Assembly (NCBI GenBank): GCA_008632985.1
Contig: QPGO01000069.1
Coordinates: forward strand, 1-64,000
Source of the DNA: Psammoneis japonica
Taxonomy: Eukaryota
DNA: 64,000 nt
Reading direction: 5' to 3'
Part shown: one piece after another, positions 4,286 through 45,299 of the stretch
Layout of the letters: the number at the start of each line of letters is the position of its first letter
Numbering within the stretch: the first letter of the stretch is position 1
Position numbers and translations under genes: made by a program
The notes under the pieces: model-generated
Told to the model about the DNA's origin: nothing
Databases searched by the model: none
The model's input: only the letters and a program-made list of their open reading frames with translations

Positions 4286-4519
4286 GGTCGCACAGATAGA
4301 TGGTAGATGGTCGCACTTTTGACTTTTGAGAGCATTTTTGAGTGTGTGCGAAATGGTGACTGCGGGTGTGCGATGTGCGATGAGCGATGAGGCGCATAAA
4401 TGTCGGTCGACGCATAGACTCACGATGGAGAGTGCAACCGCAACGCTACGACAACCCACACATCAGCACGAAGTTGTTTGGCAGTGTGCGATTGGCCTTT
4501 GTCGCAACGACAAACTCAA

Positions 4520-6119
4520 ATGATCATGTGGCAGGCTTTGTGAGCTCTCTCTCTCTCTCTGTTGCCATGGCCAGACTGTGAGGTGCCTGTCTTGTCACCT
4601 GCCGCAGTGTGCAGTGCAATTGCCAGTGCTGGTGCGCTCTTAAAAAAAATGCTGTGGCAATTTGGTGGCCACCCAGCAAGTTTTGCAGACTCACATCACA
4701 GCCAGGTGGGATGAAGGCAGTCATCACAAAGAAGTCAGCAAAAGAAGAGTGAGTGAGTCAGGTGCAACACGAAGCACTTGCCGCCGCCGCTGCTGCGCCT
4801 CCCTTTGTCTCAGCTCAACAAGAAATGTTCTCTGTGCTGCCGAGTTTTCTTTCACACAGCTGGCTGCTGTGTGCACTTGCGCTCAATCAACTTTTGACAA
4901 AATCTGTTTGGTTGTCAAGACACTGTTCATTGGACTCAGCTCACATCCATTTTTTGTGCAGAGCAAGCGCCCCCACTTGCTTGACCCCACATTGCCACGC
5001 CCACTGGCTCAAGAAGGGCAGGAGGAGGGCCAAGGCACCAGCATCTTCCACATCATCCAAAATGACAGCTGCACCTGGCTTCCAGAACAGAAAATGGAGA
5101 GCTGCCCACAGCTGCAGCTGGCTCTCAATGGCTGCCACAGCTCACACCCAGAGCAGCCACACCAGTGTGATGTGGGGTGGAGCACACAATGCATGTTCTC
5201 AAGCAGCTTGGAAAAAGCACACCATGGGCATCAAAGAATGTGGCTGGCAGCCTCGCTGGTGGAGATTCAAGGAAGGTCACAAAAAACAGAGCAAGAGCTC
5301 TTTGATGGGAGCAAAGCCACTCCAAGTGCTGCTGGTGATGATGCTTTCAGGCCAGCTTGTCTTGCCTCTTGTTGATTCATCTCAGGAAACAGCCCAGCAT
5401 CTCATCTGACACATCACTCTTGTGGCTTTTGATCTCAAAGAACCATTGAGCTGCCATGGGAGTTTTGCTCATCAGCAACTGCTGTTCCACAAAGGCTGCA
5501 CAGCCCAGGAGGGTCACTGTGTCTGATGCTGCCATGGCCAAACAATTTTGCTTCAAGAACAGCAGCCAAGGAACCACAAAAACAGATGGCAACATTGACA
5601 ATGTGCAGAAGAACAAACATGTTGTCCATGCAACCACTGCTGCCACAAAGAGCAGCTAGAATGGCACCATGCACTTCAAAGAAAAAGCTGTGCAATGCTG
5701 CTTTCTGCAATTTGGCAGCACATGAAAAAGGCAACAGGAGATAAACAAGAGGGTGACAACAAGTGAAGTGCGCGGGGGCAGCATCAAGAAAGATGGGCCA
5801 GCAAAGCAAGAGCACTTCAATGCAACAAAAAAGGCATGCATGGTGATGAAGAAAGAGTGTCATTGTTGCCAACATTCATGACTCTCAGGAGAAAAGCCAG
5901 TGTGCTGTGTCTCATCACAGAACACTCCCAACTGGGAGGTCTGCAAGTGGTGCGGATCACAGAAGGTCGAAGCCGCTGCAACGAAGAAGAAGTGCGGGGT
6001 CACTGCCTTTTTTCACAAATGTCCTCCATCCAGCAAAATGTCTGAACCAACCACATGACAAGGACTTGGCATCATTCCCATGGTCATCATCATCAAAAGT
6101 GAAAGGCTGGTTTGAGGGA
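4520..6119. mobile_element. Degenerate unassigned repeat/TE relic, interrupted by the copia insertion and continuing at ~13553-13780
   Basis: Almost no TpA, few CpG, no recognisable protein. The same composition resumes after the AGGGA TSD. Confidence 0.55.
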
Positions 6120-6396
6120 TGATAGAAAATGAAGGCAAATGGCAAGAATTCAAACAACAACTCCTTGCTGCTGTCTAAACAGCAGATGAGTCTCCGCTCA
6201 GAGACCGTCACAGGAGCCGAAAGACGTGCAAGTCGGTACAATCGGGCTGCTGTTGTCATTCTTGTGAGCCTTGTGGCTCGAAAGCAAACTACATCGCCGC
6301 GTGAACGCGCGGAACTAAAGCACACAAAACTGTGCGCGGTAAACTAAACAGCGCGCGATGCTTCGCGCGCATCCAAATCCTGTTCAAATCCTGTCA
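6120..6396 (-). repeat. 3' LTR of copia element 1 (277 bp, TpA-mutated copy)
   Basis: Direct repeat of 13277-13552 with 10 substitutions and 1 indel. Preceded on the minus strand by the PPT ACTGGGGAG. Confidence 0.97.
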
Positions 6397-9300
6397 CTCC
6401 CCAGTTTGCTTGAGGAGCCACAGAAACAGATTCGACTTCGGATGGAATGAAGTTCCAGAACATGAGGGGTCGGAGAAGGTCCCAGATTTGGGAGTGACCC
6501 CAATGCTTGCTGAGAATGTCAGCAGGGTTGCGGGAGCCTTCGATGAAGTGGAACTCAAGGCAACCAGAGGCAATTGCCTCACGCACACGGTGGAACGACA
6601 GTGCGGTGTGTCGCTTGTGCAACTTGGAGTGTGGGATGGTGGCACTGTCTACAACCGACTTGTTGTCACCGAACATGTAACTGACATTGCGGATCGGGAC
6701 GCCAAGGCAGCGCAGGGTGATGCGCAGGTCGACAATCTGCTCAACACAATTCCTTGCGGCAACAAATTCAGATCCGCAGGTTGCAGTCTCCACAGTGGCT
6801 TGTTTCTTGGAGAACCAATCAGCCGGGAATTTGTTGAGGAAGTGGAGCATTCCCATGACAGAGCGCCCGGTGAGCATGCAATGGTGCAAGTTTGCATCGA
6901 CGCAGTGGGTGGCAGTGACGAACTTGCCAAGGGGCGGTGGAGCGTCCTTCGGGATCATCTCTTCTGCTTCACCGTACACGGAATGCATCCATTCGTAGGC
7001 CGGAGCAGGGAGATCCGAATGGTCGGGCTCTTCCGTGCGAACGCGGAGAGCACCGTGTCGCATCTTGGAGAGGTGCCCACAGACGCGTTTGGCACGATCC
7101 AAGTGGCCTTGACGGGGCGCAGCTCGGAAGCTAGAGAGTGACATGACGGCCGTGGCAATGTCAATTCGACCAAGGGACACTGCCCATTGGAGTGAACCAA
7201 CAAGAGACTGGAACTTGTGAATGCCATCGGGTCCCAGCAGTTCGGAAGTGTCCAGTTCGGGGTGGTCACCCTTCTCTAGAGGTGACAGGGCGTTGGTGGC
7301 AGGTTTCTCCCCAAACAGTCGGGCGCAGCTGTCGACCATGCGCTCGATGTACTTGCGCGGAGACAGGCACAAGGTTCCATCGGGGTCCCGGGAAAAGTCG
7401 CAACCCAGATGGAACTCAATGGGTCCCGCACCCTTGAGCTTGAACTTGCACTTTTCCGTGAGAGTGTCGACGAAAGATTGAGGGTCCTTCATGGCAATGG
7501 CGAGGTCATCCACATAAACGGCAATGTGTTCACAGTGGTCGCCGTTCCTGCGCATCCAAATGTCGGGTTCGGCGCGGCAGGGGAAGAAGCCTTCAGCTCG
7601 CAGGCAGTCGGCGAAGCGCTCGTGCCAGCGGAGACCGGAGCTGCGGAGTCCACACAGTGCCTTGTGGATGACAAGGATGTGTCCTTCGAGTTTGCCAAAT
7701 TCGGGTCCAGCTACAATGTAAAGCTTCTCCTTGGTGGTGGCTTCAAGGCAGGCATTGCCAATGTCGGTGGCCCATGTCTCCAGCTCGTTGAGTTCGCCAG
7801 GTGCACTCGGATCTTCTTGTGTCCCGCAGGAGGAGTGGAAGACTTGAAGGGCCCGCAGTCATGGAAGACTTCGCATTCGTCGAGTTGGTCCATCTCGAGA
7901 TTAGTTGCGTCTCCCCACTTGCGGTTGCCATTGCGTTCGTCTAGTGACATGGCGTGTTTGCAGTTCCGGGGAACTTCGCATCCGCACTTGCAGCGAGGTG
8001 CAGTGCGGAAGGAGCGAAGCTTGGCTTGGTTGGCCATGCGAAATAGCTTCTTTTGGCGCCTCGCGATGGTGCGGAACCGCTTCCATCCATCCGTGTCGAG
8101 GAGTCCGTTCTCTCGTGCATAGATGGCACAGGTGACGGGGTCGTCCTTGGCGATGATGGCAAGAGGCTCGGACGTGATCTCCCCACTTTCCCATTCAAGC
8201 ATGATGTTGTAGCTTGAGCCTTTCCAGGTTGGGTCGTGAGGCTTCAGAGGGCCTTCGTGTGACACGATGCGTCGAAATTTCCAAACAGTGGTGTCTTCGT
8301 CTTCTTGCTCAATGTGATTCATGATGTCATTGTAGGCAAGGACTTCCTCGTATTCGTCATTGTTGACAGAGCAGACGAACTTAGTGAGCTCGGGATTGCC
8401 GTTCACTTTCCATTCGTGGTCTTCGACGGCCTTGACGATGCGAGCTCTGTGGCGTTGTCCGTCCTCTTGTGGCTGCATGAGGAAGGTACGTCCAATGATG
8501 TCTTGCGGATCGAAAACTGGCATCTTGGGTGTCCTGATCTCCCCATCAGGAGAATCGACGGGGTTGTCGTCATGGCGAGATTTGATGATGGGTTCAGGTG
8601 GCTCCCCATCAGGAGGATCAAGATGCAGGTTTCGAACGGCAGGATCGGGGGTGGCGGAGCGAACGTTGGACCGGCAGAGGATCTTCTGAGTCTCGTCAGA
8701 TAGAATCTTGAAGGTCATCTGGTGGCCGACGTGCTCAGCAATGCCAACGAAGCGTCCACGCAACTCACGAGATTCGGACGGCCAATCGGAGTCATCGAGG
8801 TGGAAGTACACTGGTTCCCACCAGTGAAAGCGAAGCAATGGGCTGATGTCCGGGGTGGATCCAGTGAGAGTCTCGAGGGGCGTGCGCCAGTGGAGACGTG
8901 GGGACGCTGCATGGTTGAGTGTGAAGCACACGTGCATGAGCGCCAGCAGCCATGTGTGGGCGGGCGAACCAAAACGGTCCATGACAGTGTTCGCCATGCG
9001 CTTCACAGTCTGGTGTCGACGCTCGGCAAAGTTTTGGTGTTGCTGGTGAGGCTCACTTTGCCAGCTGGAGATGAAGAGGGCGCGTAGGATCCCGAGCACT
9101 TTGTTGCTGATCTCAACTTGAGCACGGTCGCTAATGAGTTTGGATGGGGCACCACGTTCACGGATCTGATCCTCGAGTGTGTTGACAAACTCTTTGTCCG
9201 TCTCAGTGCCGCAGACGTCAGTGACGGTAGACTCGGTGCCAACAAACAGTTGGGCGCTGGTGCAACCAGAGTCGACGGCCGGGGTGTCGGCACAAACGGT

Positions 9301-12300
9301 GTCAGTGGCGATGGGCTCGTTGCGACGGTGCACATTAAGGGCGGGGTTGGGTGATTTGAAGGCCTTGCGAAGGTGTGCACCGGCGGGCATGCGGGCGTGC
9401 TGCGTGGTGCAGTCAAAAGTACGACGGACTGCATCGGCAGGCAGGAAGCCAAAGTGAGGCCGAAGGGACTCGAAGGGGGGGTCCTTGGGCTGTACAGTGC
9501 GCTCCGGAGGTGGAACGTCATCGCCCTTGGGGTCAATCGCATGCAGATGACACTCGCAGAACACGTCGTCGTTCGGAATGAGGTGATCATCGAGGGCGGA
9601 CGCGTGATCGGCAGACAAGGAAGCGGACAAGATGGTCTCGTTGACAACGACACGGTGACGGCAGTTGCCGCATTCGTCAAACAGGTTGGCAGTGGGATCG
9701 TCCTGCAGGTCAGAGATCGCGTCGTACCACTGGTCATCGTCAGTGACAGAGTGATCGAGGACGGAAGGGTCCCATGTGTCATCACCGGTGAGGATGACGT
9801 GGGGCAGGGTGTCCCATTCGGCGTCAGTGCAAGGTCGCATGGCAACACAAGGCAGGCCAGCCTTGATGTCAATGGGGATGACATAGCCATCAGGAGTGGC
9901 AATGCGTTGCAAGCCGTTGGGCACCTTGACAGAGCGATCGTTGACATCCTGTTTGCACCATTCGAGCTGGCCGCAGGAATGGATGGTCTTGCCCTTTCCT
10001 GTGCATGCGCACTGATGGAGGATGGCGATGACGGGACCACGCTGGGTCTCAATGACGGCACCAGCGGTGACAATGGGGATGTCCACCAATTGATGATCGT
10101 CAATGCCCTGAACGTCGACTTGGCGAGAGGTGCGTGCGATGACGCGGACGTCGTCGCCAGCAATGCCGCCGTTGGCCCCACGATCGACTAGAGCGCCAGT
10201 GCATGTGGAGCGATGAGCAGAGGCAGAGTGAATGACATTGTGGTTGTCAACGCGGCGGCAAGTGCGGCCGTTAAGTTCTGTGTCAGCTGCAGAAGCTGGC
10301 AACACAAGGCAGGCCAGCCTTGATGTCAATGGGGATGACACAGCCATCAGGAGTGGCAATGCGTTGCAAGCCGTTGGGCACCTTGACAGAGCGATCGTTG
10401 ACATCCTGTTTGCACCATTCGAGCTGGCCGCAGGAATGGATGGTCTTGCCCTTTCCCGTGCATGCGCACTGATGGAGGATGGCGATGACGGGACCACGCT
10501 GGGTCTCAATGACGGCACCAGCGGTGACAATGGGGATGTCCACCAATTGATGATCGTCAATGCCCTGAACGTCGACTTGGCGAGAGGTGCGTGCGATGAC
10601 GCGGACGTCGTCGCCAGCAATGCCGCCGTTGGCCCCACGATCGACTAGAGTGCCAGTGCATGTGGAGCGATGAGCAGAGGCAGAGCAAATGACATTGTGG
10701 TTGTCAACGCGGCGGCAAGTGCGGCCGTCAAGTTCTGTGTCAGCTGCAGAAGCTGGCGGGGTAGAGGAAGCGGCGGATGGCCCCGGTCGACTGGCATTGG
10801 TGGCTTGGTTAGGAGACAACAGACGTTGCAGATCACCGGGTGGCAGTGGCTTGCGCTTGGTGAGGTGCGCCAGGATGGGATTGTCCGAAATGGCGTCCAC
10901 ATGTGCAGCGGAGTCACCACAGTCAGCAGGAGTCGTGTTGGACAAGTTGACATCACCGTCACTCCCAAGGTGTTGGTCGTGAAGGTTGGCCGTAACAGAC
11001 TCATGGCAGTTGCTGGCTCGCGGGTTGCGGGGAGGCGGACGAGAGTGCTCAAGGATGATCGCCTTGGAGGAATCGGGCAACGAATCCCAGAGCCGTTGGT
11101 GGTCGGGAGGGAGACGTCTCCATTGGACACCGGTGAGGCTGGGACCACGGGTGCAGGCAGCATTGGCTTGAAGGACGTCAACGTCGCTGTCAATGTCGTA
11201 GAACACATCGTCGGACGGTTCCTCGGAGCAGACGTCGTGTGCGCATGTGGCGTGTCGGGGAGCTCGAGGTGTTGTCTTGGGTTGAAACGTGCTGTCGTGC
11301 TGAGCTGCCGCGGAGAGGAGCAAGCCACAGCATTGATCGCATGTGAGGCTCTTGCCACTCTGCGTACGATGCTGATCAGCTTGGTTCTTGACAGCACGGA
11401 GTTCCTCGACAGGGTGCACGGCATTCTCGAGCATGACGCGCTTCTGTCCTTCAGAGAAGTGGTCGCTGGCGGGGATGAGTGCCTCGCACTTGCACAACTG
11501 ATCTTGCCAATGAAGGATGAACCCGTGGGTCGGACCTTTCCAAGTGCCATCACCAAGACGTGTGGTGGTGAGGTGCGTGAGCAGGGTGGAGGACTCGACA
11601 GATGCACGGGTGGAGGCAAGCGCGCATTCAGACAAGGAGCGGCAGACGGTCTGTGCGTCAGAGGACCCCACATTTTCGCGAATGAGAGCCTTGCCCTTGT
11701 CGGTGAGAAGGATGCGTTCGAAGACGGCGAACATGTGCTTTTGCTGTTCAGCAAAGAGCAGTTTGTCTTCGGGGCTGGTCGGTTTGTACGACGAGTCTAG
11801 AATGCACTCGACGTCTTGGGCACGGGCTTGTGCCACAAGTGAGGTGTGCCAAGTGTGCCGCTGCTTGTCGGATTTGAGAGCCGTGAAAGCGGTGGGATCA
11901 CGCTTGATGCCTCGCTTGAAGTCTCGCACCGGGTCGCGTGCCTTGGTCGGGTTGGTGACATGTGGAGGTGCAAGGGGTGAGCTGCCGATGGACAGAGAGG
12001 ACATGCAGTCCGGGCTGAGGCGGTGGGCAAGGAACTCGTCATGCGTGAACAAAGAGGAGTCATTGGCAACGTCAAGACCTTTGTGTGCTTTGACAATGCA
12101 CAGGCCAACTGGTGCTGCTGACATGTTCTTATAACCATGGGGCAAAGGGATCACATTGGCGCGCCGTTGTCGCACTCAAGCGAGTCGATTTGGGACGGTG
12201 TGAACGTGAACAGTTCCTGATGCGAGTCCGTGCCGTCTTGGGCCAAAGCCAAACGAAGAGGACTCCCAGCACCTTGGGCAAGCACGGTTCCAACAACGTG

Positions 12301-12339
12301 CTCGAAACCATCGGTTTGTTGCTGACGAGTGAGAACCAT
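6397..12339 (-). pseudogene. gag-pol polyprotein of copia element 1 (frameshifted, internally duplicated and deleted)
   Basis: Gag: FKRGIKRDP, LENAVHP. Protease: LVDRGANGG. Integrase: IATDTV..., LISDRAQVE, HQNFAERR. RT: WATDIGNA, AVYVDD. RNase H: CVDANL, SEFVAAR, GDNKSV, NPADILSK. Confidence 0.95.
9840..10757. repeat. 457-bp tandem duplication of the protease region with TGGC microhomology
   Basis: 9840-10296 is repeated at 10297-10753. TGGC occurs at 9840, 10297 and 10754. 457 is not divisible by 3, so it frameshifts pol. Confidence 0.95.
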
Positions 12340-13265
12340 GGTAGACAAAAGTGGTGTCAGGACAATCAATTCTGGTTGGGAAGCGAAGGCAGACTCGAAA
12401 CTTGGGTGAGAATGGACTTGACTTGAAATGGACTTGACTTGAAATCTTGAACTGTCTTAAAATCAGAAGTCGCCGGGCTTTGTCATCCCGTTCGTTGTCA
12501 AGTGCTAAACTTCCCATCCGGACCGCAGAGTTGTGCCGGCACGTCCGAACCCGCAGCCAGCGGCGCTTTGGGTTGCTTGCGAGCGGAGCAGCGGGTTGTA
12601 AACCCCTGCAGGCAAGCTGAACAGAGGTGGACAAGACCCCCGAACCGTTCTTATTTTGTGTCGGTTGGATTTCCCGATCAGGCTGGCCAGTTGACGCAGG
12701 CGTCAGGCGCTGTGGACGAACGAACAAACGCGGGAAAGCACCCTCGCCCCAATGCAGGCTGCAATCACGGCTGCTTGCTCTCACAGTCGTCCTCGTGGAC
12801 CCAGTAGAACTGTAGAGCACCAGTAGTCCGGGGTAGATCAGGTACAATGGACTCGGTGTGCTTGTAGAGTGGTGGCAAAACCGCAGTCCGAAGAGTGGGT
12901 ACAGGTTCTTGGCCGTGAAGATATGTATATATATATGTCTTCAGCGACGAAGATCCTTGAATATGTAGGGTTCTTGACCGTTAACCGATGAATAGGTATA
13001 TCAAGGGATGAGGATCAAGGATAGACTTGGATATGACCGTTGAATGTATGTCTTCAGCGATCAAAGGTAGTATAATCAATCCAGATATCCAGCGGTAAGG
13101 AGACTTGACGGTGACGTTAACTTCCTGCCGATGCCCTGGTATTGAATGCGCGTAGACTTGCCGATGTATGTAGAATATATACGGAGGTCCACGTAGAATT
13201 GAAATAGCGTCGTTGGTAAATCAACGACGACGATGGCGGTTGCTCAATGGGTTGACAATGAGCAA

Positions 13266-13276
13266 GACTGTTAATC
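13266..13276 (-). other. Putative primer-binding site complementary to a tRNA-Asn(GUU) anticodon arm
   Basis: Plus-strand GACTGTTAATC abuts the 5' LTR and resembles the tRNA-Asn anticodon stem-loop (positions ~30-40). Confidence 0.55.
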
Positions 13277-13552
13277 TGATAGAAAATGAAGGCAAATGGC
13301 AAGAATTCAAACAATAACTCCTTACTGCTGTCTAAATAGCAGATGAGTCTCCGCTCAGAGACCGTTACAGGAGCCGAAAGACGTGTAAGTCGGTATAATC
13401 GGGCTACTGTTATTATTCTTGTGAGTCTTGTGGCTCGAAAGCAAACTACATCGCGCGTGAACGCGCGGAACTAAAGCACACAAAACTGTGCGCGGTAAAC
13501 TAAACAGCGCGCGATGCTTCGCGCGCATCCAAATCCTGTTCAAATCCTGTCA
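13277..13552 (-). repeat. 5' LTR of copia element 1 (276 bp, TpA-retaining copy)
   Basis: TGATAG...CTGTCA, direct repeat of 6120-6396. Confidence 0.97.
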
Positions 13553-14157
13553 AGGGACCTGTGGTTTTGCCAAAAATGCCCCAAATCACGTGATTTGTGA
13601 TTTTGTTCTTCCTGGAGCTGGGGGGCATGCCCCTCTCTGGTGGTGCCAAAGAACAGCAGAAATGAGGACTTGAATTCACTGACAGATCAGAACCCCCCAA
13701 CATTCTTGTTTCTGTAATTCAGCAAGAAGTGATGAGGGCAGAAAGCCTGCATTTTCAGTTGTGGACTGTTGCTTGGAATGACCCGTACATGTATGGCGTT
13801 TATGGTGTGTTCCACGTGTCATCAAATAACACGACCCGGCTATTATTGCCAATGGGGCTTCGGTGCTCTGTAGGGAGCTACGAAAAACATACTGAGAGCG
13901 AAATTCGTTCCGTGAGAAGCCCCTCGAGACCCAGCCACAAGATTTTGTGCGTCTACGCCTGCCTACCTGCTGGCTGTTGTTGGCTGTGTTGAGTGTGCTG
14001 TGTTGAGTTCCATCCTCGTCCATCGGCGTCGCTGTTGTTGCTGCTGCTGCTTTGGCGCTGTTATTGCTTTATTTGCCATTGCTCTTTCTCTTGCGGCAAG
14101 AACGTTAGACTCGTTTCAATCTCTTAGTTGACGCAAGATAAACAACACTTTTTAAAA

Positions 14158-19220: not shown

Positions 19221-19530
19221 ACCTCCTCCGTACTTAGTCATGGTTATGCGAGTAAATACCGTAGAAGTATGCACCAAACTATCCGAAATGCAATGATAGA
19301 TGCGTTGGCTTTCTGCGTCCCTCCCAGCAATACAGCCGATTAATCCTTTCCGGTTCATTCCATTTTCAATTTTAGATTTGCTTTTTCAGAGAAACGGAAG
19401 ATGGGAGGACCATGGAGCCCGCGCCAAAAAAATCACGGGTATGGTAGCGCGTATGCGCGCGGGGAAGCAGAATCATCGGCTGACATTCAACATTCAACAC
19501 TCGAGCACCGGTATCCGATATGCCGCAACC

Positions 19531-20832
19531 ATGGCGGATGTCGTAGACGATGCGAGCCCCCCATATGGTGTTGTACTACCTCCGACGGCAGAACGTTGTT
19601 TGCTTCGTCGACTTCCAAAGGAGGTTTCACGAAGGATCGTATCGTACGGCGACGTTGAATCGAACGTGCGACTTGCGGCGTGTTCGTCAGGGCTAAGACG
19701 CTTTGTGTACCGAGACTGCCCCAGTGCATGGGCCGAGATTGATTTTGAGAGTGTAACGAATGCGAGTAACATCACTGATGCTGATCTCTTTACCTTGCTC
19801 AAGAACGTCGACGCTCACAAGGTGACGAGATCCCTCTCCTTGATGGGCTGCACCTCGGTTCGAGGCGGCGGACTGTCTGCGCTGATGTACTCGCGTCGCC
19901 TGGAAGAGATTGAACTCCGACGGAGCAGCGAGGAGATGGAAAGGTATGACCAAACAGGCCTTAAAAACTCAATTATAATTGGGGTGCTGAAGTCGATGCC
20001 TCCAATCAACACAAACCTCACGGCTTATCAAGGAGTCCCTGTTGGACTGAAAGTAGTCAAGTTTCGAAAGCAGCATGCAAACGCGGCGACCTTTTTTTCT
20101 TCATTTGATAACCCGATTGCTGACTTCTATGAAAGGCTACAAAGCGCCACTGCGGAGAGCATGAGAAAGCATCGAACTGCGTGTGATTTTTGTCACCGAG
20201 CAATCGTAGATACCATTGACGAAGACGACTTTGAGTGGCAGGGACAGTTGTCTTATTGCAGTGATTGCAAGGCGTTTACTTGCGACTTTTGCAGTGAAGG
20301 GATTTCTGAATGCCGTGCATGCATTGGTCAATACTGCAGTGAATGCAGATCTGTAACTTATTGTGTCGATTGCGACCAACCATTTTGCGAAAAGTGCAAG
20401 GAATCGTTCTATTGTGAATTCTGTGATAAGGCATTTTGTGAAGAATGTCGAGATGCCACGTTGTGTGACATCTGTGAGAGTGCCTCTTGTCATTCGTGTC
20501 GTGGTGTCCTCAGCTGCCGGGCTTGCAGTCGGTCGTACTGCAAAAAGTGCATGCCTGCTGTGGAATTTTGCGACAAATGCAAGGAGATCTATTGCATCTT
20601 ATGCAGCCCTGTCGTGGAATGCCATCGCTGTGGATTCTCTTCTTGTACATTCTGCTCTGCGGTGATGAGGCAGGTTTCAAAGGATTGCAAAGGATCGTGC
20701 ACTAATTGTCAACGTGTGTGCAAATGCCTCGGATGCACGCTTGGTCGAGCCAAACAGCAACTCATTACCAAGTACTTTGTGCCATTGAAGGAAAGCAGCA
20801 GCCCCGAAAGGAAGCGACCTCGTCTTGTTTAG
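19531..20832 (+). CDS. F-box-like / LRR-like protein with long CxxC-repeat Cys-rich C-terminus, paralog A
   Basis: F-box-like LLRRLPKEVSRRIVSY...W, LSLMGC LRR-like segment, many CxxC repeats, C-terminal RKRPRL (NLS-like). Confidence 0.7.
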   Translation: MADVVDDASPPYGVVLPPTAERCLLRRLPKEVSRRIVSYGDVESNVRLAACSSGLRRFVYRDCPSAWAEIDFESVTNASNITDADLFTLLKNVDAHKVTRSLSLMGCTSVRGGGLSALMYSRRLEEIELRRSSEEMERYDQTGLKNSIIIGVLKSMPPINTNLTAYQGVPVGLKVVKFRKQHANAATFFSSFDNPIADFYERLQSATAESMRKHRTACDFCHRAIVDTIDEDDFEWQGQLSYCSDCKAFTCDFCSEGISECRACIGQYCSECRSVTYCVDCDQPFCEKCKESFYCEFCDKAFCEECRDATLCDICESASCHSCRGVLSCRACSRSYCKKCMPAVEFCDKCKEIYCILCSPVVECHRCGFSSCTFCSAVMRQVSKDCKGSCTNCQRVCKCLGCTLGRAKQQLITKYFVPLKESSSPERKRPRLV

Positions 20833-21267
20833 GTTGGTCATTGCTACGTACGGTATTGCGACCGTGGCTATGACCTGGCAAATGGTTTACGGGCGCGAAT
20901 TGTTTCTTGTTTCTCAATGAACGGTAGATTGGGAAAATGCGCTAAGACGACCCAGAGTTGCCTCGGGTTCGATCTAAGGCACATAAACGGATGAACCTTC
21001 TCTAGAGTGCGAAAGGGTCTGGAGTAAAGAGGGCATACCTAGTACCATAAAGATATTCACTCTTCAAGCTGACATGTTCTAAGGATACAACGTAATTTTG
21101 CTTTCCCTAACACTTTTCACTACCCCTTTTTGTTAGTTTCCGAGATGGCTACGATCGCTTCAAGCTACAATGATCGGTGACATCATAAGGGCAACAACAT
21201 TGCGTCGAAAGCGACCAATCAATCGGATGGAGCCGTACAAGCGCATTTATAATACTTGAAACTCCTC

Positions 21268-22196
21268 CTACATGAACTTTGCTTGGCTAAAATCCATTTC
21301 AGGATGCTGCTTCTTGAACCTCTCAAACGCATCAAGCTTGTCCTGTTCCTCACTCGTAGGCAATCCCATTGCTTTTTGGCGCTGATCATACATCATCTTT
21401 TCTACTGTCTGTTGTATTTCACCGTCCAGATCGGATAGACTAGATGACTCTGGCTGAATCGTCTTGACATCAATCTTGGCATCCCCCTCGACTACACAAT
21501 CCCACCATTCCATTTGATCAAGCTTTTGTAAATTAATCACCAACGCATTACCGTCCTCGATAGTCCAAAACGAATCATCGACAATAACGCTTTTGCAGAG
21601 CGGAGCGTTGACGATGAATTCCTTTTCAGCCTTGAGACCAACCTTGAGATGCTTTTTGTGGATGACTACATTCAAATCCCGTGCACGAGAACCTTGTGGT
21701 AGGGGAACGTTGACATTGACTTCAGCCAAGGTTTGTGTCCAGACATACTTGCCCTCGACTGTACCGCCGTTTCCTACCGGCGGCGGTGCCTTCGTCTCGT
21801 CGTTGTCGTCGTTTTGTTGTGTGGACGGAGCGGCCGCTTCTTTAGTTTCCGGAGGTGTCTTTTTAGGTTCTTCAATCTTTTTCGTATCTTTCTTAGGTTG
21901 AGCAGAAGCAGGTTTCGGTGTCTTGGTTGGAGATACATCAAAGCCACCGTCGTTTCCAATCTCGACCACATCTTCAGACTTTTCTTTCTCCTCCGTCTTT
22001 TTCTTTTCCTTTTTCTTCTTTGATGCTGCCGCTTTTTTATTCTTGGCCTCTTGTTCCTTTTCATATAGCTTCAAGTGCTTATCCAAGACCTTTTGCACGG
22101 TTTGAACCGCCATTTTCGTTCCTCCCTTGCCTTCCGGACCTGCAAAGAAATCGGTCTTGCGTCTAAGAAACGAGAATACACTGTCTAGCAGCGGTT
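21268..22196 (-). pseudogene. 5'-truncated NudC copy (no start codon, no first ~28 codons, no promoter)
   Basis: Near-identical to 31104-32023 but cut at the duplication junction. Reads DGEIQ where the intact copy reads DGETQ. Confidence 0.85.
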
Positions 22197-22572: not shown

Positions 22573-25500
22573 CGAGCGAAATCCGATGTATCGAGCATTG
22601 GATTGGGATACCAATGCTGCGCTGCTATGTTGAAGTGGCGCGCGGGACTGTGACGTGGTGTCGGTGGGAAAGATGATGACCATGACCATCGATCGGTCTC
22701 ACTTGTTGCAATCGTTGCAGTGGTGACAGGCCTGGAAGCATCTTGTTGGTTGCATTCACATTGTCGTGCTAAAACTGTGAGTGGCTGAGCCTGTCTGGCA
22801 ACTGGATTTGCTCACTTTGTCAGAGCCAAGTCTCAACTCACGCTTGGTTTGACAAAAAGTGACGAGCAACTGAAAAGAAACGATTGCACCATCATGGCAT
22901 GGTCATGACGACGAATGCCGGACGATCGATGGGCATGCAATGATTGTCATCACCCAGCATCAGTGCATGCATGAGCAGTGAGGAGACATGGCCAGTCTCT
23001 CCATGCTTCCAATGGCTGTGTGTTGTCGTCAGCACAAAAAGAGAAATGTGATCGTCTTGTGTGTTTTCTCACATGACTCTGTTTTCCCACTGGCATGGGT
23101 GCCACTGTGGTGGCTGCTCTTCCTGATCTGATTGAGACAGCTCTTGATTGGATTGGATTTGTTGACCAGGCTCACAACGAGCTTCGCTTGTGGTGGATTT
23201 CGTGTCGTTTGACGATTTAGAAGACCTTGAGGAAGACGATGTCGACTCTCTTGCTTCGTCACATGCAAGGAGGACGGTTGCTGAAGGGCGCATTCATTTT
23301 GGTTTGGCCCGCAGTCATTGACTCAAAGCTTTCATCCATTGGGTTCAAGATTTTGGCCGCACAAGCGAGAACCCTGCTCTTGATGGGCTCGACCAAGCGA
23401 CACCCCGCACTGAACTCCAGACGGCACTTGGTCGCGCTGAGATTCACTCTCAGACTGAGGACACGGCAGACTCTCTTGGTGAGGAGGCATCACCTGGGAT
23501 GTCAGAGAGTGAGAAAGGTTGGGCAAAGTGGTGCACTGGCTTGACAAACATGTCAGGCATTGTGCTGGGAGAGTGTCCGGCATGCCACCAGTGCATTGCA
23601 TCCATCTGAACGATGCACCAGAGCCCAATGGTCACAACACCTTTGTCCAGAAGTGCATTGCATGTGCACCTCTCAATGGCCCAGCTTTTGAAGTGGATGC
23701 TCACACCATTCATTTGTTGGCAGAGTCCCTTGCCATGGGGACACCAAGTGAACAGTGGTTGAAAGACTGCAAAAGCGAGCAAAATGGACGCGTGGACTGT
23801 CAGGCACCATGTGACCACTGCCAGGGAGAAGGAAATTCCTCCCATTGCATTTCTGAAGCCAAGCGCATGGAGAACACTCTCCATTGCAAGAGTGAACATG
23901 CTGTGCTGTTTGAGTTGTTTGTTGACAAACTCCAAGAAATGTTCAACATTTGTGAGGAGAACGATGAACCCAAAACGGAGGCTCAGAAACTGTGCATCCT
24001 TTTCAAGAAGACTCAGCACCAACAGCTGCAGGCTGCAGTTGAGTCCTTGAAGGCACAAAACAAGTTTGGAGGAGGCATCACATTCACCATGGTGGCTGAC
24101 CACATTGCGCATCGCCGTGCGATTGCTGCAGTTGCCTCAGGAGGAGGAAGCAAGAGTGGCACCAACTGCAATGCCGATGGATTCATTGACACTGGATGCC
24201 ACAAGAATTGGCGCCAGTTGAGCAAAGAGGACAAGCAGAAGGTCATCGACAAGCGCACGCATCTGGGAATTTCTGAGCAACCTAAGAATCTGGCAAACGC
24301 CGTGCTGCACATCTGTCAAGTTGCTCAAGAAGAAAAATTGGAAGCTGTCGTTGCAGCTTAAAGAAGCAAACCGCAAAATCTTCACTTTGAACACAGACAC
24401 CCCCACGCTGATTTGGGCAATGATTCAAAGGATGGTGGACAAGACAAGGACAATGCCGGAGACGCATTCGGTGGATGCAGTGAAAGGTGCAGCAGATGCC
24501 AGAAATGACTGCCAAGCTGGACTCTGCTCTGTGGCACATCATCAACTTTGCACTGTGGTTGCTGCACTGGGGCAGAGGACACCCACATTGATCAGTCAGA
24601 AGAGACCCAAGTTGCTGCAGTTGAAAGATTTGCAAGGCAGTTGCCTCCACTTGATGCATTTCTGCAGCTCGGTCCGACACCCGAATCCCTCATGTCTGCG
24701 ACATGAGTCAGGAGGTACAGCATGGATGTGTTGAAATGGATTTGCATGCTGACACCACTGTCTTTGGTCATGGTTTCACCCTCTTGGGTTGTTCTGGAAG
24801 AGAGTGTGATGTGTTGCCTTTCAATGAGGGATGCAATTCCATCAAGAGTGTCCCGACAGTTTCAGCAGCAACAGCGTGGACGTCACCAACATTGGGAGCA
24901 ACGTTTGTTCTGGTCTTCCACAAGGGCTTGTGGATGTCAGACTCCATGGAGCACTCATTGGTCAACCCCAACCAATTCTTGTGGCATTTCAGTGTGAAGG
25001 TCCAGGACAACCCCTGTTCCAACTTGCCATTGCACATTCTCATGGAGGACAATTCATTCATGATGTCACTCGAGGTTGTGGGGACCAATGTCGTTGCGGC
25101 AACCCGCACTCCTGCAGATCAGGAGTTGCACAAGTGCCCCAGGATCCTGATGACCTCCCAGCAACCCTGGGATCCACAGAACATCAAGTTCAATTCTGTT
25201 AGACCTCAACGCTCTGCAGAGGAGGAAATGGAATTGGTTTGGTGAGTTGCAACGGTCGACACTGTCCAGACAAATTTGACACACAAATTTAGTGCCGACC
25301 CCACTTGCAGCAACCCTCAGTCCGGGGACTGCAAAGACAGGCAATTCATCTGTGGTGTCAATCAGATACAATCAAGGTTAACAGCAGTGGTTAAAGTGGA
25401 GTCACTGCCAGAAGCCAAGGTCACTGCAACCAAAACAATTGGCAACGGACCTGAAGATTTGCCAACTCGAAAGACATTCATGTCCAAGGAGTGACACAGT

Positions 25501-28500
25501 GATGTGACAGCTGCGGACTTGAGTGAATGATGGAGTGTTGGACTCAAGCAAGCAACGAGTGCACTCAAGAAAACTGCTCAGAAGCTCTCAAGGTCGGCGC
25601 TGATGCCCATGGGTCAACGCCATCGAGCGGACTGCATGTTTGCGAAACCAAGACTGCGAGGTGAGTGGGCAACCGACACTGTTGACAGCAAGGTGACTTT
25701 GTTGGAAGGCAACCGAAATGCCCAGATCCTTGCAAACAAGCAATGCTTTGCTGCAATGAGCCCCATGGACAAGAAGAGCAAAGCAGGAGAAGCTCTAAAG
25801 ACGTTCTGCCAAGAATTTGGCATTCCGGAGAAGCTCGTCATGGATGGTTCCAAGGAACAGACGAAACTGGGCACTGAGTTCATGAAGATGGTGTGCAAGG
25901 ACGGCATTGACTGCCATGTTGTCAAACCCGATCAACACAACCAGAACCCTGCTGAAGGCATTGCACATGAAGTTCAGTGCAAGTGGTTCCGTGTCATGGT
26001 CAAGAAGTGTGCACCGTGGCAACTGTGGGGTTGCGGATTTGCATGGACCTGCAAAATCATGTCTCACACGTTCCTCAGATCACATCATTTGGATGCTGGA
26101 GCACCACTTGAAAACATTCTTGGAGAGACCGTGGACATCTTGGAGCACCTGGACTTTGGATTTTATGATTGGGTCTGGCACAGGGAGAACGTGGGTCTTG
26201 GCGATGAGAAACTTGGCACAGGTGGCTTGGCGCATCTCGTGGAATGGGGAGCCTCATGTCACATCATGCTTTGACAGAGACCGGCAGTGTCATGTTGAGG
26301 ACATCTGTTCAAGGAGTCACCAACTTAGAAGCCATCACTCAAGAGAACAAGGTTAAGTTCAACAGTTTTGACGAGGAGATCATGCGCCATCTGAGGGAGC
26401 ATGATTTCCCCGATGATGAAGAACGAAAGATCAGCCCCGAAGATTGGAAGGACCACCTTGGACATGACGAAGAATTCCTTGATGAGTGCAATTGCATCAT
26501 GTCATTGGAAGAAGCAATTAATGAGGATGATGACACGAAAGACAAGAAAGCCTCACCAGAAGAGCAACTGATTGGGTGATTGGGGTCACCTCAATGTGGA
26601 AGCAGCACTCCCAAGGGATGACAATGGCCCTGAATTTGCTCATGTTGCAAAGAGGTTAAGAGATGCCAGTGGCATTCTGAGAGGAGCAGCCAACGACAAT
26701 CCCATCCTTGACACTGGGATGCATGAGGTGGAGCACCCCGATGGGCACAGTGCTGCGCTCTCTGCCAACTCCATTGCCATCAACATGATCGCAAAGATCA
26801 ATGAAGATGGGAGCCGACATGTTCTGTTTGATGAGTCAGTTGATTGCCATGCAAATGGGGACATTTCGGAATCCACGTTCTTTGAGACTGATCAGGGTGT
26901 TCAGAAGAGGCACAAGACTGCCAAGGGATGGGAACTCCTGTTCCAATGGAAGGACAGGAGTGTGACATGGACAGACTTGAAGGACGCCAAGGAGAGCTTC
27001 CCTGTCCAAGTCACCAAGTTTTCCATCCAACACAAGATCTCAGAGGAGGCAGCATTTGCTTGGTGGGTCCCTCATGTCATGAGGACCCACAAGCATTCCA
27101 TTGCAAAGGTCAAGTCGAAACATTGGCCAAGGACACACAAGTTTGGTGTCCGAATTCCCAAGAGCATCAAGGAGGTGATCCAGCTAGATTGCGTGAATGA
27201 CAACACCCTTTGGTGGGATGCCATTTGCATGGAGATGAAGAATGCATGCATTGCATTTGAGAAATGCAAGGGGGGGCTAGAAGACATGGCGCCTGGCTGT
27301 CAGGAAGTAAAATGCCATGTGATTTTCTACATCAAGATGGGAGAAAATTTTTGTGGCAAAGCTCGCATGGTGGCTGGAGGCCACACTGCTGAAGCCCCTG
27401 CAACTCTCACCTGCTCCTCTGTCATCTCGCAGGATTTGGCAAGAATTGCACTTGCACTTGCAGTGCTCAGCCAACAACTTGAAAGTTTTTGCATGTGACA
27501 TCCAGAACGCCCACCTTGCTGCCCCTTGCAGGGAGAAGATTTGGACCCGTGCAGGCTCAGAATTTGGTGAAGATGAAGGATGCATCATGATTGCAGTCAG
27601 AGCTCTCTGTAAATTAAAGAGCTCGGGAGTGGCATTTGGGGCATTTCTGGTGGAGACGCTGTGTGATCTGGGGCACAAACTGAGCAAGGCCGATCCGGAC
27701 GTGTGGATGCAACCTGCAGTGAAACCCGATGGATTCGAGCACTGCGAGTGCGTTTTGGTTTATGTTGACAACGTGTTGTCAATCAGTCACAAGCCAATGA
27801 AGATGATGGATGGCATCAGGTCCAAGTTCAAGCTCAAGGGTGACAAGGCAGCCAAGCCTGATTCTCACCTCAGAGCTGCGCTTTCCAAGAGGACTCTGGC
27901 CGATGGAACCACCTGTTGGTCGATGTCTGCGGAGAAGTGCTGAAAGGCTGCTGTTCAGAATGTTGAGGACAAACTCAACAAAAAAGGAAGACATCCACCC
28001 AATGAGGTGACCACTCCACTGGGCTGTGGACACAAGCCCAAGCTGGACATGACTGGTGAATTAGATGCCAAAGGACTGCACTGCTGCCAAGAGTTGATTG
28101 GGCGTGTTGGTTTGGGCGGTGGAACTTGGCAGAGTCGACATCCATTTGGAAGTGTCATCAACATCTGCCCACCTTGCATTGCCTTGCATTGGTCATCTGG
28201 AACAGGTGCTGCATGTCTTTGCGCATCTTAAACAGGTTCCAAAGTGCCAAGTGGCTTTTACCCGGCTCATCCCAAGATTGTTGAATCTTGATTCGTGAAG
28301 TGTGGTTGGCACGACTCTTGCCAAGACGCCAAGAAAGCCATCCCAACAAATGCACCGCCCACTCAAGGCAATGCAATGTCAACACATTGTTTTGTGGATT
28401 CTCATCATGCTGGCAATGTTGCCGATCACTGCAGTCACACAGGCATCTTGACGTTTGTCAATTGGGCACCCGTCATGTGGTGCTCGAAACGTCAGAATGC

Positions 28501-29225
28501 TGTGGAGGCGAGTGCATTTGGAGCCAAGATCGTCAACTCAAGAATGCTGTCAAGCTCATTGAAGGACTACGATGCAAGCTTTGAATGTTTGGGGTGCCAA
28601 TTGAGGGATCAATGAATGTCTTTTGCAACAACAAAGCCGCCCACAAGAGTTGCTCTGTTCCTGAGTCTGCACTCAAGAAGAAGCATCATTCCATTGCGCA
28701 CCACCACAACCGGGAAGCTGTCACTGCAGGGACTGTCAGGATTGCAAAGGAGGGAACAGAAACAAATCTGAGTGATCTGTTCACAAAGACCATGTCGTCG
28801 GTCAGGCGAAATTTTCTGTTGGACAAGTTCGCGCATTGAGTGGAGGAGCAGAGGTGGAGGAGCGGTGGTGATTTTCTTCCCTGGCGAGGGTTTGCACCAT
28901 GCTCAAGGATCATGTTTATTTAATTTAGTGTTGGAGATTGCAATTTGGCACTGGGTTGAATTGCATCTAGTGAGCTTGCTGGGAACATTTCGAGGGAACG
29001 AGTGAAATCCGATGTGTCGAGGATCGGACGCTGCGCTGCACAAGTTGAAGTGGCGGGACTGTGAGGTGGTGTCGGTGGGAAGATGACCATGACCATCGAT
29101 CGGTCTCACTTGTTGCAATCGTTGTAGTGGTAACAGGCCTAGACGCATCTTGTTGGTTGCATGTATTCACATTATCGTACTAAGACTGTGAGTGGCTGAG
29201 CCCACATGGCAGCTAGATTTACTCG
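22573..29225 (+). mobile_element. Ty1/copia (CoDi-like) LTR retrotransposon 2, heavily hypermutated; LTRs 22573-22814 and 28999-29225
   Basis: Diverged direct-repeat LTRs. AGTG duplicated at 22569-22572 and 29226-29229. Empty site present in copy A at ~19380-19405. PR: EMDLHADT. IN: EFGIPEKLVMDGSKEQ, NQNPAEG. RT: KARMVAGGH, CDIQNAHL, VYVDN. RH: FVDSHHAG, WCSKRQN, NLSDLFTK. PBS-like TGTCAGAGCC at 22818. PPT GAGGGAA at ~28992-28998. Confidence 0.93.
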
Positions 29226-29364
29226 AGTGTAACGGACGATGGGAGGACCATGGAGCCCGCGCCAAAAATCACGGGTAGCGCGTAGCGCGGCGAAGCAGAA
29301 GCGGCGCTGAGCGCTGACATTCGCCCACTCTGAACTCGAGCACCGGTATCGGTATGCCGCAACC

Positions 29365-30663: not shown

Positions 30664-31103
30664 GTTGGTCATTGCTGCGTACGGTATTGCGACCGTGGCT
30701 ATGACCTGGCAAATGGTTCACGGGCACGATTTGTTTCTTAGTCAAAATGAACGGTATATTGGGAAAATGCGCTAAGACGACCCAGAGTTGCCTCGGGTTC
30801 GATCTAAGGCACATAAACGGATGAACCTTCTCTAGAGTGCGAAAGGGTCTGGAGTAAAGAGGACATAACTAGTACCATAAAGATATTCACTCTTCAAGCT
30901 GACATGTTCTAAGGATACAACGTAATTTTGCTTTCTCTATCACTTATCACTACCCCTTTTTCTTAGTTTCCGAGATGGCTACGATCGCTTCAAGCTACAA
31001 AGATGTGAGTCGGTGACATCATAAGGGCAACAACATTGCGTCGAAAGCGACCAATCAATCGGCTGGAGCCGTACAAGCGCATCTATAATACTTGAAACTC
31101 CTC

Positions 31104-42400: not shown

Positions 42401-43250
42401 CAAGCTGTTTTGCTTCAATCAAATGCACCCTTCTCAACTCTGGGTCACTTGAGCCACGACTCTTCCATCATCTTCTTGTCAACTGGCAATTCATTTCAGA
42501 TGCTTTCAGCTTGCTTCCATCCCCACAGATTCATGCAGCAATGCACAATCCTTGGAGCTTCTTTTGTCAGCTTTGAAACATTTTTGAATCCACACACAAA
42601 TTTCACACTCAACTGGAGGGAGCTTGTGGGAAAGCCCACAGATGACCCAGTTGCTTGTGCGGCATGCCAAGTGTGTCTGATGTCTGCCACAGATTGCAAG
42701 CAACAACAGGTGGTGTGGTGTGCATTGAGTTCTGCGAGATGTGCCAGGAGTGCAAGTTTCTCTGCAACTCACCCTTTCTTTCATTTTTGATCTGTCAGCA
42801 TCCTGCCAAGCCTTCAGTTTCTTGACAATGTGAGTCAGAACATTTTGTCTTTTATTTCATCTTCTGTGCAGCAGCAGCCCAGCTGCTGGAAGGATCTTCA
42901 TTTCAGCCATTGGCCGCCATTGACTCTGGAGCTGTGACACACCAGGCTCCCACTCTCCATCTGAGCCTGGACCTCTTTGTGCACTGCTTCAATGAGCTCC
43001 TCATGATTTTGTTGTTTTGTTGCTTGTTGCATGCATGCAGCACTGAGGTCTGCTGAAGCTCCAATTTTGGCAGAGCCATGCCTTGCACTGGCCACCCAAT
43101 TGGTCAACTTTTTCACCCTGATCTTGTTGTCACTTCTGACATCCATGGCTTGCTGGGTGGATCAGGTTTGCCCTCCTGGGGTGTGTGCTCAAAAGATGGG
43201 AAACACAATGGGCTGGTCAAACCCTGTGCACCCAGCTGCCATTTCACATG

Positions 43251-43292
43251 CACAACAACAACAACAACACACAACAACAACAACAACAACAC
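43251..43292. repeat. (CAA)n microsatellite
   Basis: Imperfect CAA run. Confidence 0.9.
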
Positions 43293-45145: not shown

Positions 45146-45299
45146 CACAGGAGGGCTGTCACAAACCCATGGCTCCTGCAAGGAATGAGATGCCAAGGCA
45201 CACCCTCATGACAGGGAGCTGACACAGGAGGGCTGTCACAAACCCTTGGCTCCTGCAAGGAATGAGATGCCAAGGCACACTCCCATGACAGGGAGCTGA
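45146..45299. repeat. 2 x 77-bp tandem repeat
   Basis: CACAGGAGGGCTGTCACAAACCC...GACAGGGAGCTGA starts at 45146 and 45223. Confidence 0.93.

What the first reader, a model, noticed from the sequence alone, without database searches (positions are those of the whole stretch)
9840..10757. Internal 457-bp tandem duplication suggests the mutator acted before and after duplication
Seen: both copies share most Tyr-to-Cys/His changes (HQCACTG, EWCKQ, GLPCVA). They differ at five sites: CATAGC vs CACAGC, GTTAAG vs GTCAAG, GAGTGAAT vs GAGCAAAT (one site resolved as TG in one copy and CA in the other, giving His vs Cys), and two CG/TG differences. Inference: shared hits predate the duplication and private hits postdate it, so the process is recurrent. 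The His/Cys site is best read as ancestral Tyr hit on opposite strands, although ancestral CG cannot be excluded.
Basis: partly seen in the sequence, partly recalled or inferred. Interest (0 to 1): 0.75.

Follow-up and report, generated by a model that had tools for sequence, protein, structure and literature searches.

The report
Retrotransposon duplication dates TA-erasing mutation
A 457-base tandem duplication inside a dead jumping gene of a diatom-like alga shows that an unusual process turning TA into CA or TG hit each copy separately after the duplication, but the changes the two copies share do not by themselves prove that it also acted before.

Summary
The duplication and its five differences are real as described. 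It lies in a copia LTR retrotransposon (6120-13552) of a diatom-like host. The His/Cys site was TA: 13 of 36 sibling copies keep TA and none has CG, and 84 of 102 protein homologs have Tyr. So TpA->CpA/TpG hits on opposite strands struck both units after duplication. Strong site preferences make unrelated copies agree almost as often (10 of 11 shared directions against 7.9 expected, P=0.14), and two shared states are inherited family alleles. A private T>G and a CpG change shared by both units put the duplication about 30% (roughly 10-60%) into the copy's mutational life, so most hits came later. Across 35 LTR pairs, 343 of 405 differences are at TA sites. Hits are post-insertion, not strand-clustered, prefer TAY, and often spare the 5' LTR. 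This works like the TpA hypermutation reported in Bigelowiella natans (one preprint), most likely through distributive DNA adenine deamination; no enzyme is shown. The junction is not confirmed by reads. The scan found this process many times elsewhere in this genome.

The parts
9840..10300 (-). Duplication unit A; in frame with the downstream protease/integrase-region ORF 7711-10644
10297..10757 (-). Duplication unit B; its 5' part continues the gag-side ORF 10283-12175, which stops just past the junction because 457 is not a multiple of 3
10297..10300 (.). Duplication junction with 4-bp microhomology TGGC; junction pattern unique in the genome
10229..10230 (.). His/Cys site in unit A (TG; unit B 10686-10687 CA); family state TA, homolog residue Tyr
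9884..9885 (.). TA kept in unit A, CA in unit B (10341); Tyr in 112 of 117 homologs
10272..10273 (.). TA kept in unit A, CA in unit B (10729); slow TTAA context
10000..10001 (.). CpG decay private to unit A (CG in 35 of 36 siblings)
10651..10652 (.). CpG decay private to unit B (matches 10194; CG in 27 of 36 siblings)
10286..10286 (+). Private T>G shared by both units (also 10743); 0 of 36 siblings; the G-allele pattern matches only these two places in the genome
10202..10203 (.). CpG->CpA change shared by both units; 3 of 36 siblings
6120..13552 (-). Ty1/copia LTR retrotransposon, TG...CA ends, multi-copy family, carrying the duplication
6120..6396 (-). 3' LTR; 9 TA sites changed relative to the 5' LTR (6 CA, 3 TG)
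13277..13552 (-). 5' LTR; TA kept, as in most of the adjoining leader from about 12700
6115..6119 (+). Target-site duplication AGGGA (partner at 13553-13557)
7797..7801 (.). Site of a 132-bp deletion private to this copy, 5-bp microhomology CCAGG; 36 of 36 siblings keep the segment
6347..7858 (-). Reading frame with copia reverse transcriptase (RVT_2, E=2e-16)

Best explanation
A copia element inserted with its TA sites largely intact. In the chromosome it was then exposed to a regional, long-running mutation process that changes TpA to TpG or CpA one site at a time on either strand, fastest at TAC/TAT and slowest at YTAR, alongside slower CpG decay. Part-way through (best estimate about 30% of this copy's mutational life, roughly 10-60%) a microhomology-mediated slip duplicated 457 bp, and both units went on being hit independently. 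SHOWN: direction from TA, both strands, post-insertion timing, independent hits after duplication (given a real junction), context preference, no strand clustering. INFERRED: some hits before the duplication; a steady process rather than one late burst; chemistry by A-to-I deamination of DNA by a TadA/ADAT2-type enzyme guided to silent chromatin (about 45% on its own; a thymine-side lesion in 5'-RTA would give the same pattern). The confidence given covers the timing-and-process reading, not the enzyme.
For: Sibling states and homolog Tyr fix the direction. In 35 LTR pairs, identical at insertion by retroviral mechanism, 343 of 405 differences are at TA sites, 41 at CpG and 21 other; 57 site-pairs are resolved in opposite directions like the His/Cys site. 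101 of this copy's 127 changed TA sites show TA or the opposite state in at least one of its 5 nearest relatives. Both units share a private allele found nowhere else. Private non-TA, non-CpG changes occur at 325 of 182,911 site-copies (0.18%), close to the post-insertion LTR rate of 0.15%, so the shared T>G most likely arose in place, before the duplication. The joint likelihood peaks at f=0.3-0.4; f=0 is down 1.6-2.9 log units if 30-10% of private changes were inherited. Adjacent hits show no strand coordination (-0.0026 vs null 0.0003+-0.005, 1235 pairs). TA kept ranges from 0.19 to 0.89 over 36 copies and TA loss tracks CpG loss (rho 0.52, p=0.001). Older blocks in the window are nearer saturation, with 60 of 92 leftover TA in YTAR vs 174 of 1078 in genic DNA. 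Hazard by base 3' of A: C 0.63, T 0.55, A 0.14, G 0.13, with C/G favoured at +2; TadA-derived editors prefer UACG(A) (PMC8052359, passages). TadA/ADAT2-like genes exist in the genome.
Against: TA sites alone do not require any hit before duplication (P=0.14-0.16); 33 of 406 unrelated sibling pairs agree as well as A and B do. The 'before' signal rests on two mutations and on the assumption that the TA, CpG and background clocks run together. TA loss does not correlate significantly with transversions (rho 0.23, p=0.17), so differences among copies may reflect location rather than age. The junction is not read-confirmed, and this assembly holds at least one duplication that looks artefactual (L033). 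The deaminase genes found look like ordinary tRNA or nucleotide enzymes; none reaches the TadA cut-off (best 133 of 150 bits) and nothing links them to DNA. TAT is nearly as fast as TAC, which is a looser fit than UACG.
Confidence: 0.6

Rival explanations
1. The duplication arose at or right after insertion (a reverse-transcriptase slip at the 4-bp microhomology). All TA hits came later, possibly in one episode; the shared states are parallel hits at biased sites, and the two shared non-TA changes were inherited from the parent element.
For: TA-only likelihood for f=0 lies within 0.6 log units of the best fit. Very fast sites (10004, 10259, 10279) are changed in nearly all siblings, mostly in the same direction. 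The same copy carries a second microhomology-flanked rearrangement. In B. natans hypermutation was seen in 11 of 15 lines, so it need not be steady.
Against: It needs the private T>G and the shared CpG change to be inherited, while private changes look mostly post-insertion. LTR pairs agree in direction at only 73 of 123 doubly hit variable sites (59%, my hand count from the table, leaving out four near-fixed sites), against 8 of 9 for the two units (binomial about 0.06 by hand). Siblings were chosen for likeness to this region, which inflates the expected agreement.
Confidence: 0.22
2. Assembly artefact: two haplotype alleles of one insertion were placed in tandem, so the five differences are allelic.
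For: No read-level proof. Sibling L033 has a 133-bp tandem repeat with an unresolved base at its joint and no substitutions between units, so false duplications probably occur in this assembly. Allelic copies would share the private allele and differ by the same kinds of change.
Against: This junction has no unresolved base and no indel, and it has a 4-bp microhomology (about 1.6% by chance, my arithmetic), like the 5-bp one at this copy's deletion. No second haplotype carrying the private allele is assembled elsewhere. Even if true, the opposite-strand reading of the His/Cys site would stand.
Confidence: 0.08
3. Chimera of two different family members (template switch between co-packaged RNAs, ectopic recombination or mis-assembly), so the differences predate the joint.
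For: The family is large: 342 candidates and 98 exact matches to a 23-nt pattern.
Against: The G allele at 10286 matches only units A and B in the genome and 0 of 36 siblings. A and B differ by 6 bases; each differs from the 29 siblings by 7-19 mismatches.
Confidence: 0.03
4. Shared states come from later gene conversion between the adjacent units, so they date nothing.
For: Adjacent near-identical repeats can homogenise (general knowledge, not tested here).
Against: The five private differences are spread over the unit (9884-10272) and interleave with the shared ones, so several short tracts would be needed.
Confidence: 0.04
5. The changes are RNA editing (ADAR-like) or reverse-transcriptase errors fixed before insertion.
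For: Raw counts show about 1.7 times more A>G on the element's sense strand (2652 CA vs 1571 TG), and two A_deamin loci exist in the genome.
Against: The strand excess disappears after fitting context (0.18+-0.2 log units). LTR pairs differ at TA sites in both directions, and one LTR is often spared.
Confidence: 0.03

Closest known systems
TpA hypermutation of integrated NCLDV and virophage DNA in Bigelowiella natans (Mettrop et al., bioRxiv 10.64898/2026.01.13.699255)
   Same: A:T->G:C transitions at TpA on both strands, confined to regions of foreign or mobile DNA, acting on chromosomal DNA; the authors propose an ADAT2-type DNA deaminase without showing it.
   Different: There: a rhizarian, two viral regions, rate measured in mutation-accumulation lines; the main text does not contain 'diatom', 'LTR', 'retrotransposon' or 'context'. 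Here: a diatom-like host, a multi-copy LTR family, inferred from comparisons, with TAY preference, frequent sparing of the 5' LTR and parallel CpG decay; no rate measured.
Repeat-induced point mutation (RIP) of ascomycete fungi
   Same: Dense transitions in transposon DNA on both strands that wreck coding capacity.
   Different: RIP makes C:G->T:A, mostly at CpA (abstract of PMC2621366), which creates TpA; this process destroys TpA. The 3-kb host-gene duplication in this window is not hit (12 of 120 classified differences of TA type, 89 TA kept), so duplication alone is not the trigger.
TadA/ADAT2 adenosine deaminases and TadA-derived base editors
   Same: A-to-G outcome with 5' T/U and a preference for UACG(A) (PMC8052359); here TAC and TAT are fastest and C/G is favoured at +2.
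   Different: Natural substrates are tRNA; no DNA activity or targeting is shown for the homologs in this genome; TAT is almost as fast as TAC.
Polymerase eta WA mutagenesis of somatic hypermutation (recalled, no call)
   Same: A>G at TA on both strands.
   Different: AA is barely touched here (32 A>G singletons in 20,149 site-copies) while more than half of TA site-copies are changed (4223 of 7312).
Diatom Ty1/copia elements (CoDi groups; PMC2806351)
   Same: LTRs with TG...CA ends, 5-bp target-site duplication, RVT_2 domain; named homologs come from Phaeodactylum tricornutum and Nitzschia inconspicua.
   Different: CoDi group not assigned (no RT tree made); this copy is broken by a frameshifting duplication, a deletion and many Tyr->Cys/His changes.

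Membership tests
Bigelowiella-type TpA hypermutation | Changes are almost only TpA->TpG/CpA | tested here: met
   343 of 405 LTR-pair differences at TA sites; 41 CpG, 21 other; direction from homolog Tyr
Bigelowiella-type TpA hypermutation | Both strands hit | tested here: met
   CA 2652, TG 1571; 57 LTR site-pairs resolved oppositely; the His/Cys site
Bigelowiella-type TpA hypermutation | Acts on integrated chromosomal DNA | tested here: met
   LTR pairs diverge at TA; nearest relatives differ in which sites are hit
Bigelowiella-type TpA hypermutation | Confined to regions of foreign or mobile DNA, host genes spared | tested here: met
   TpA o/e 0.10-0.19 in the element body vs about 0.4-0.8 in most genic kilobases; gene duplication spared. 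The origin of the other TA-poor blocks in the window was not worked out.
Bigelowiella-type TpA hypermutation | About 1000-fold raised de novo rate, active in only some lines | not testable with these tools
   Needs mutation-accumulation lines
Bigelowiella-type TpA hypermutation | Same enzyme (ADAT2-like candidate; unproven in B. natans too) | tested here: inconclusive
   TadA/ADAT2-like genes present (L072 E=6.6e-39, L075 E=4.4e-12 against NF008113, both below cut-off); no link to DNA
RIP | C:G->T:A transitions that create TpA | tested here: not met
   Direction is TA->CA/TG
RIP | Triggered by duplication as such | tested here: not met
   Linked 3-kb gene duplication at 94% identity keeps 89 TA; 12 of 120 classified differences are TA type
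ADAR-type editing of retroelement RNA | One strand only, fixed before insertion | tested here: not met
   Both strands; LTR pairs differ; strand term 0.18+-0.2 after context
APOBEC-like processive bursts (kataegis) | Strand-coordinated clusters of neighbouring hits | tested here: not met
   No excess agreement between adjacent hits at 3-30, 31-100 or 101-400 bp (213, 161 and 220 of 300 permutations reach the observed value)
Ty1/copia LTR retrotransposon | LTRs with TG...CA, target-site duplication, RVT_2 reverse transcriptase | tested here: met
Ty1/copia LTR retrotransposon | Integrase upstream of reverse transcriptase | tested here: inconclusive
   Pfam finds no domain in ORF 7714-10644; homologs of that stretch are named integrase-domain proteins and often carry RVT_2
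CoDi group (CoDiI, CoDiII or Copia lineage) | Placement by RT phylogeny | not tested
   No RT tree built

The most novel reading that the evidence does not exclude
Diatoms run a standing genome defence in which a TadA/ADAT2-type enzyme deaminates adenine in TAY motifs of silent chromosomal DNA, generation after generation, erasing tyrosine codons of transposons while sparing many LTR promoters. Shared with Bigelowiella, it would be an old 'reverse RIP' of the SAR lineage and a natural DNA adenine editor.
Probability: 0.3. Interest if true: 0.9.

Novelty: new variant of a known kind. Interest (0 to 1): 0.6.

Why it matters
A targeted A:T->G:C mutator is reported, in the papers searched, from one alga and on viral DNA. 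A diatom-like genome in which it acts on a large LTR family gives dozens of natural replicates, a sequence motif and a timing structure with which to look for the enzyme and the targeting signal. In practice, LTR-divergence ages are badly inflated here (343 of 405 differences are TA-type), and shared changes between copies must not be read as shared ancestry. The duplication itself is a small record: it shows hits after duplication and only suggests hits before.

Tried and rejected
Reads: 4 contig-only runs of one sample were laid on 9000-11600; they gave no joint or listed piece that decides the junction. No RNA holder was listed. A second internal duplication was sought in 36 siblings as a replicate: one was found (L033, 133 bp), but it has an unresolved base at the joint, no substitutions and one TA-class site, so it is uninformative; my first script for it failed and was redone. 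Ancestral CG at the His/Cys site: rejected (0 of 36). A sense-strand bias as a sign of transcription-coupled or RNA-level action: it vanished after fitting context. Processive single-strand bursts: not seen. Sparing of the 5' LTR explained by normal flanking DNA: no correlation over 34 copies (rho -0.18, p=0.30). Transversions as an age clock: not significant. Pfam gave no domain for the two ORFs that overlap the duplication. Deaminase searches (PF00383, 9 matches; PF14437, 5; PF02137, 4) showed no expanded family; 6 frames were scanned against NCBIfam and the PF02137 loci were not examined. Literature searches for a diatom report of TpA loss in transposons found none among the listed titles and abstract starts; the library lacks most subscription papers.

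Full report
OBSERVATION. The array 9840-10757 has period 457, two copies, 98% matches and no indels. The units overlap by TGGC and differ at six bases in five sites: TA/CA at 9884 and 10272, TG/CG at 10000, CG/TG at 10194 and TG/CA at 10229-30.

CONTEXT. The duplication lies in a minus-strand LTR retrotransposon, 6120-13552, with TG...CA ends and an AGGGA target-site duplication and an RVT_2 domain. Named protein homologs come from Phaeodactylum tricornutum and Nitzschia inconspicua, so the host is probably a diatom. A search of the own genome gave 342 candidates, of which 40 were scored. I used 29 of the 39 non-self hits as 3.7-kb loci and fetched 36 of the 39 as whole elements, leaving out three near contig starts. 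These are the copies most like this region, which biases their alleles towards the window's. TpA o/e is 0.10-0.19 in the element body, with CpG o/e near 0.9-1.0. It is about 0.4-0.8 in most genic kilobases and mostly 0.02-0.12 in other blocks that have also lost CpG. This copy also has a private 132-bp deletion with a 5-bp microhomology.

IS THE DUPLICATION REAL? The junction pattern matches once in the genome. Both units carry a G at 10286/10743 that 0 of 36 siblings have. A pattern with that G matches only the two units, while a pattern with the family T matches 98 places. A chimera of two family members is thus very unlikely. All five differences are of the two locally dominant types. Against this, reads could not test the junction, and sibling L033 holds a 133-bp repeat with an unresolved base at its joint that looks like an assembly artefact. 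Two haplotypes placed in tandem remain possible, at about 8% in my estimate.

DIRECTION. At the His/Cys site siblings have TA 13, CA 18, TG 5 and CG 0 of 36. At 9884 they have TA 14, CA 14, TG 7 (one gapped), and at 10272 TA 30, TG 4, CA 2. The two CG/TG sites are CG in 35 and 27 of 36. Among 120 homologous proteins, Tyr stands at the His/Cys position in 84 of 102 aligned and at the 9884 codon in 112 of 117. So four TA hits (one in A, three in B) and two CpG decays followed the duplication, and the His/Cys site took two separate hits on opposite strands.

TIMING: AFTER IS SHOWN, BEFORE IS ONLY SUGGESTED. The unit has 14 TA-class sites, and A and B share a changed state at 10. Two of these (10053, 10284) are also in the least-changed sibling and all six nearest relatives, so they are inherited. 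The other eight show TA or the opposite state in at least one near relative, so they arose in this copy's own line. But direction is site-biased. Independent hits would agree at 7.9 of 11 doubly changed sites against 10 observed (P=0.14), and 33 of 406 unrelated sibling pairs agree in state as well as A and B do. A model with site rates and directions fitted on siblings, using 11 of the 14 sites, peaks at 10-20% of exposure before duplication. It cannot reject 0% (0.6 log units) and rejects 70% or more. The naive reading that about 70% of hits predate the duplication is therefore too high.

A softer control points the other way. LTR pairs agree in direction at 73 of 123 doubly hit variable sites (hand count), against 8 of 9 here (binomial about 0.06). 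Two non-TA changes are shared by both units: the private T>G and a CpG change at 10202-3 (3 of 36 siblings). Private background changes occur at 0.18% per site-copy (325 of 182,911; two divergent copies supply 89 of them), close to the 0.15% post-insertion rate from LTR pairs, so most arise in place. A rough joint likelihood of the three clocks peaks near 30%, with 0% down 2.9 or 1.6 log units if 10% or 30% of private changes were inherited. This assumes the clocks run together and rests on two mutations.

THE PROCESS. In 35 LTR pairs, 343 of 405 differences are at TA sites, 41 at CpG and 21 elsewhere. The 5' LTR keeps TA where the 3' LTR lost it 198 times, and the reverse happens 28 times; 57 site-pairs are resolved in opposite directions. 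The window's own pair has 9 of 10 substitutions at TA. Copies keep 19-89% of 211 TA-class sites, and TA loss correlates with CpG loss (rho 0.52) and with other transitions (rho 0.39, p=0.018) but not significantly with transversions (p=0.17). On 129 sites, the hazard for A followed by C or T is 4-5 times that for A or G (p=1.4e-11), C/G is favoured at +2, and the apparent strand bias disappears with context. Adjacent hits are not strand-coordinated, and A>G outside TA is about 0.1-0.2%. In the more eroded blocks of the window 60 of 92 remaining TA are YTAR, against 13 of 43 in the element and 174 of 1078 in genic DNA, as expected if one process runs towards saturation. Targeting looks regional. 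Most siblings sit in TA-poor flanks, while the least-changed copy sits in normal DNA (TpA o/e 0.51 and 0.55). A 3-kb host-gene duplication in this window is spared.

MECHANISM. The simplest chemistry is deamination of adenine to hypoxanthine in chromosomal DNA, read as G at replication, acting site by site in silent domains. The TAC[C/G] preference resembles the UACG(A) motif of TadA-derived editors (PMC8052359; I saw passages). TadA/ADAT2-like genes exist in the genome but look like housekeeping enzymes, and nothing ties them to DNA. Because TpA is palindromic, a thymine lesion in 5'-RTA gives the same data and is not excluded. The duplication is best read as a microhomology-mediated slip; whether it happened in the chromosome or during reverse transcription is the open point above.

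COMPARISON. The closest case is Mettrop et al. (bioRxiv 10.64898/2026.01.13.699255). I read parts 1-3 of 5 of the text (abstract to the start of methods) and searched the whole main text for six terms. The supplements are closed, and Table S2 bears on the context claim. They measured 231 mutations in two viral regions, 230 of them A:T->G:C and these all at TpA, and proposed an ADAT2 homolog. This case works like that one on every feature I could test; shared machinery is untested. It is not RIP: the direction is opposite and duplication alone does not trigger it (PMC2621366, abstract start only). For CoDi elements I saw passages of PMC2806351. Five searches listed no diatom report of this process. 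Earlier notes of this scan gave me the preprint and describe the same process many times in this genome. One notes the TAY/YTAR preference, which I had measured before seeing it. These notes are not independent support.

VERDICT. Observation confirmed, interpretation partly supported. It is a new variant of a kind known from one preprint. The duplication shows independent hits after duplication and makes earlier hits likely but not certain. Interest 0.6.

Noticed in passing
window 12700-13552; L032-L067: The 5' LTR and leader keep TA in this copy and in many siblings (198 vs 28 asymmetric sites). The pattern looks bimodal and does not follow the flanking DNA, which suggests intrinsic promoter protection.
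   Followed up: partly
window 7797-7801: 132-bp deletion private to this copy with a 5-bp microhomology; a second rearrangement besides the duplication.
   Followed up: partly
window 5789-6119 and 13553-13882: The element sits at a boundary: 0 TA of 21 expected on its 3' side, 9 of 22 on its 5' side.
   Followed up: partly
window 4500-6100, 23000-29000, 40000-48000, 50000-58000: Blocks with TpA o/e mostly 0.02-0.12 and CpG loss as well, with sharp edges; leftover TA are mostly YTAR. Their origin was not worked out.
   Followed up: partly
window 19393-22196 and 29231-32023: About 3-kb host-gene duplication (includes a NudC/CS-domain gene), 94% identical, without TA loss.
   Followed up: yes
L033: 133-bp tandem repeat with an unresolved base at the joint and no substitutions between units; probably an assembly artefact.
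   Followed up: yes
L036, L045: The two copies whose flanks keep the most TA on both sides are among the three least changed, pointing to regional rather than sequence-homology targeting. L066 has a normal 5' flank yet is heavily changed.
   Followed up: partly
L032-L067 lineage markers (table): Non-TA markers switch subfamily along several elements, suggesting recombination between family members.
   Followed up: no
L074:313-1785 (-): A deaminase-like C-terminal motif lies in one reading frame with what looks by eye like a 2-oxoglutarate/Fe dioxygenase; fusion or neighbouring exons not checked.
   Followed up: no
L070/L073 and L071/L076: A double-domain dCMP-deaminase-like gene appears on two contigs with equal scores, possibly haplotype duplicates.
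   Followed up: no
element family, non-TA sites: A>G singletons outside TA (98 of 80,600 site-copies) run about twice the non-CpG C>T rate (47 of 82,889), possibly leakage of the same process.
   Followed up: partly
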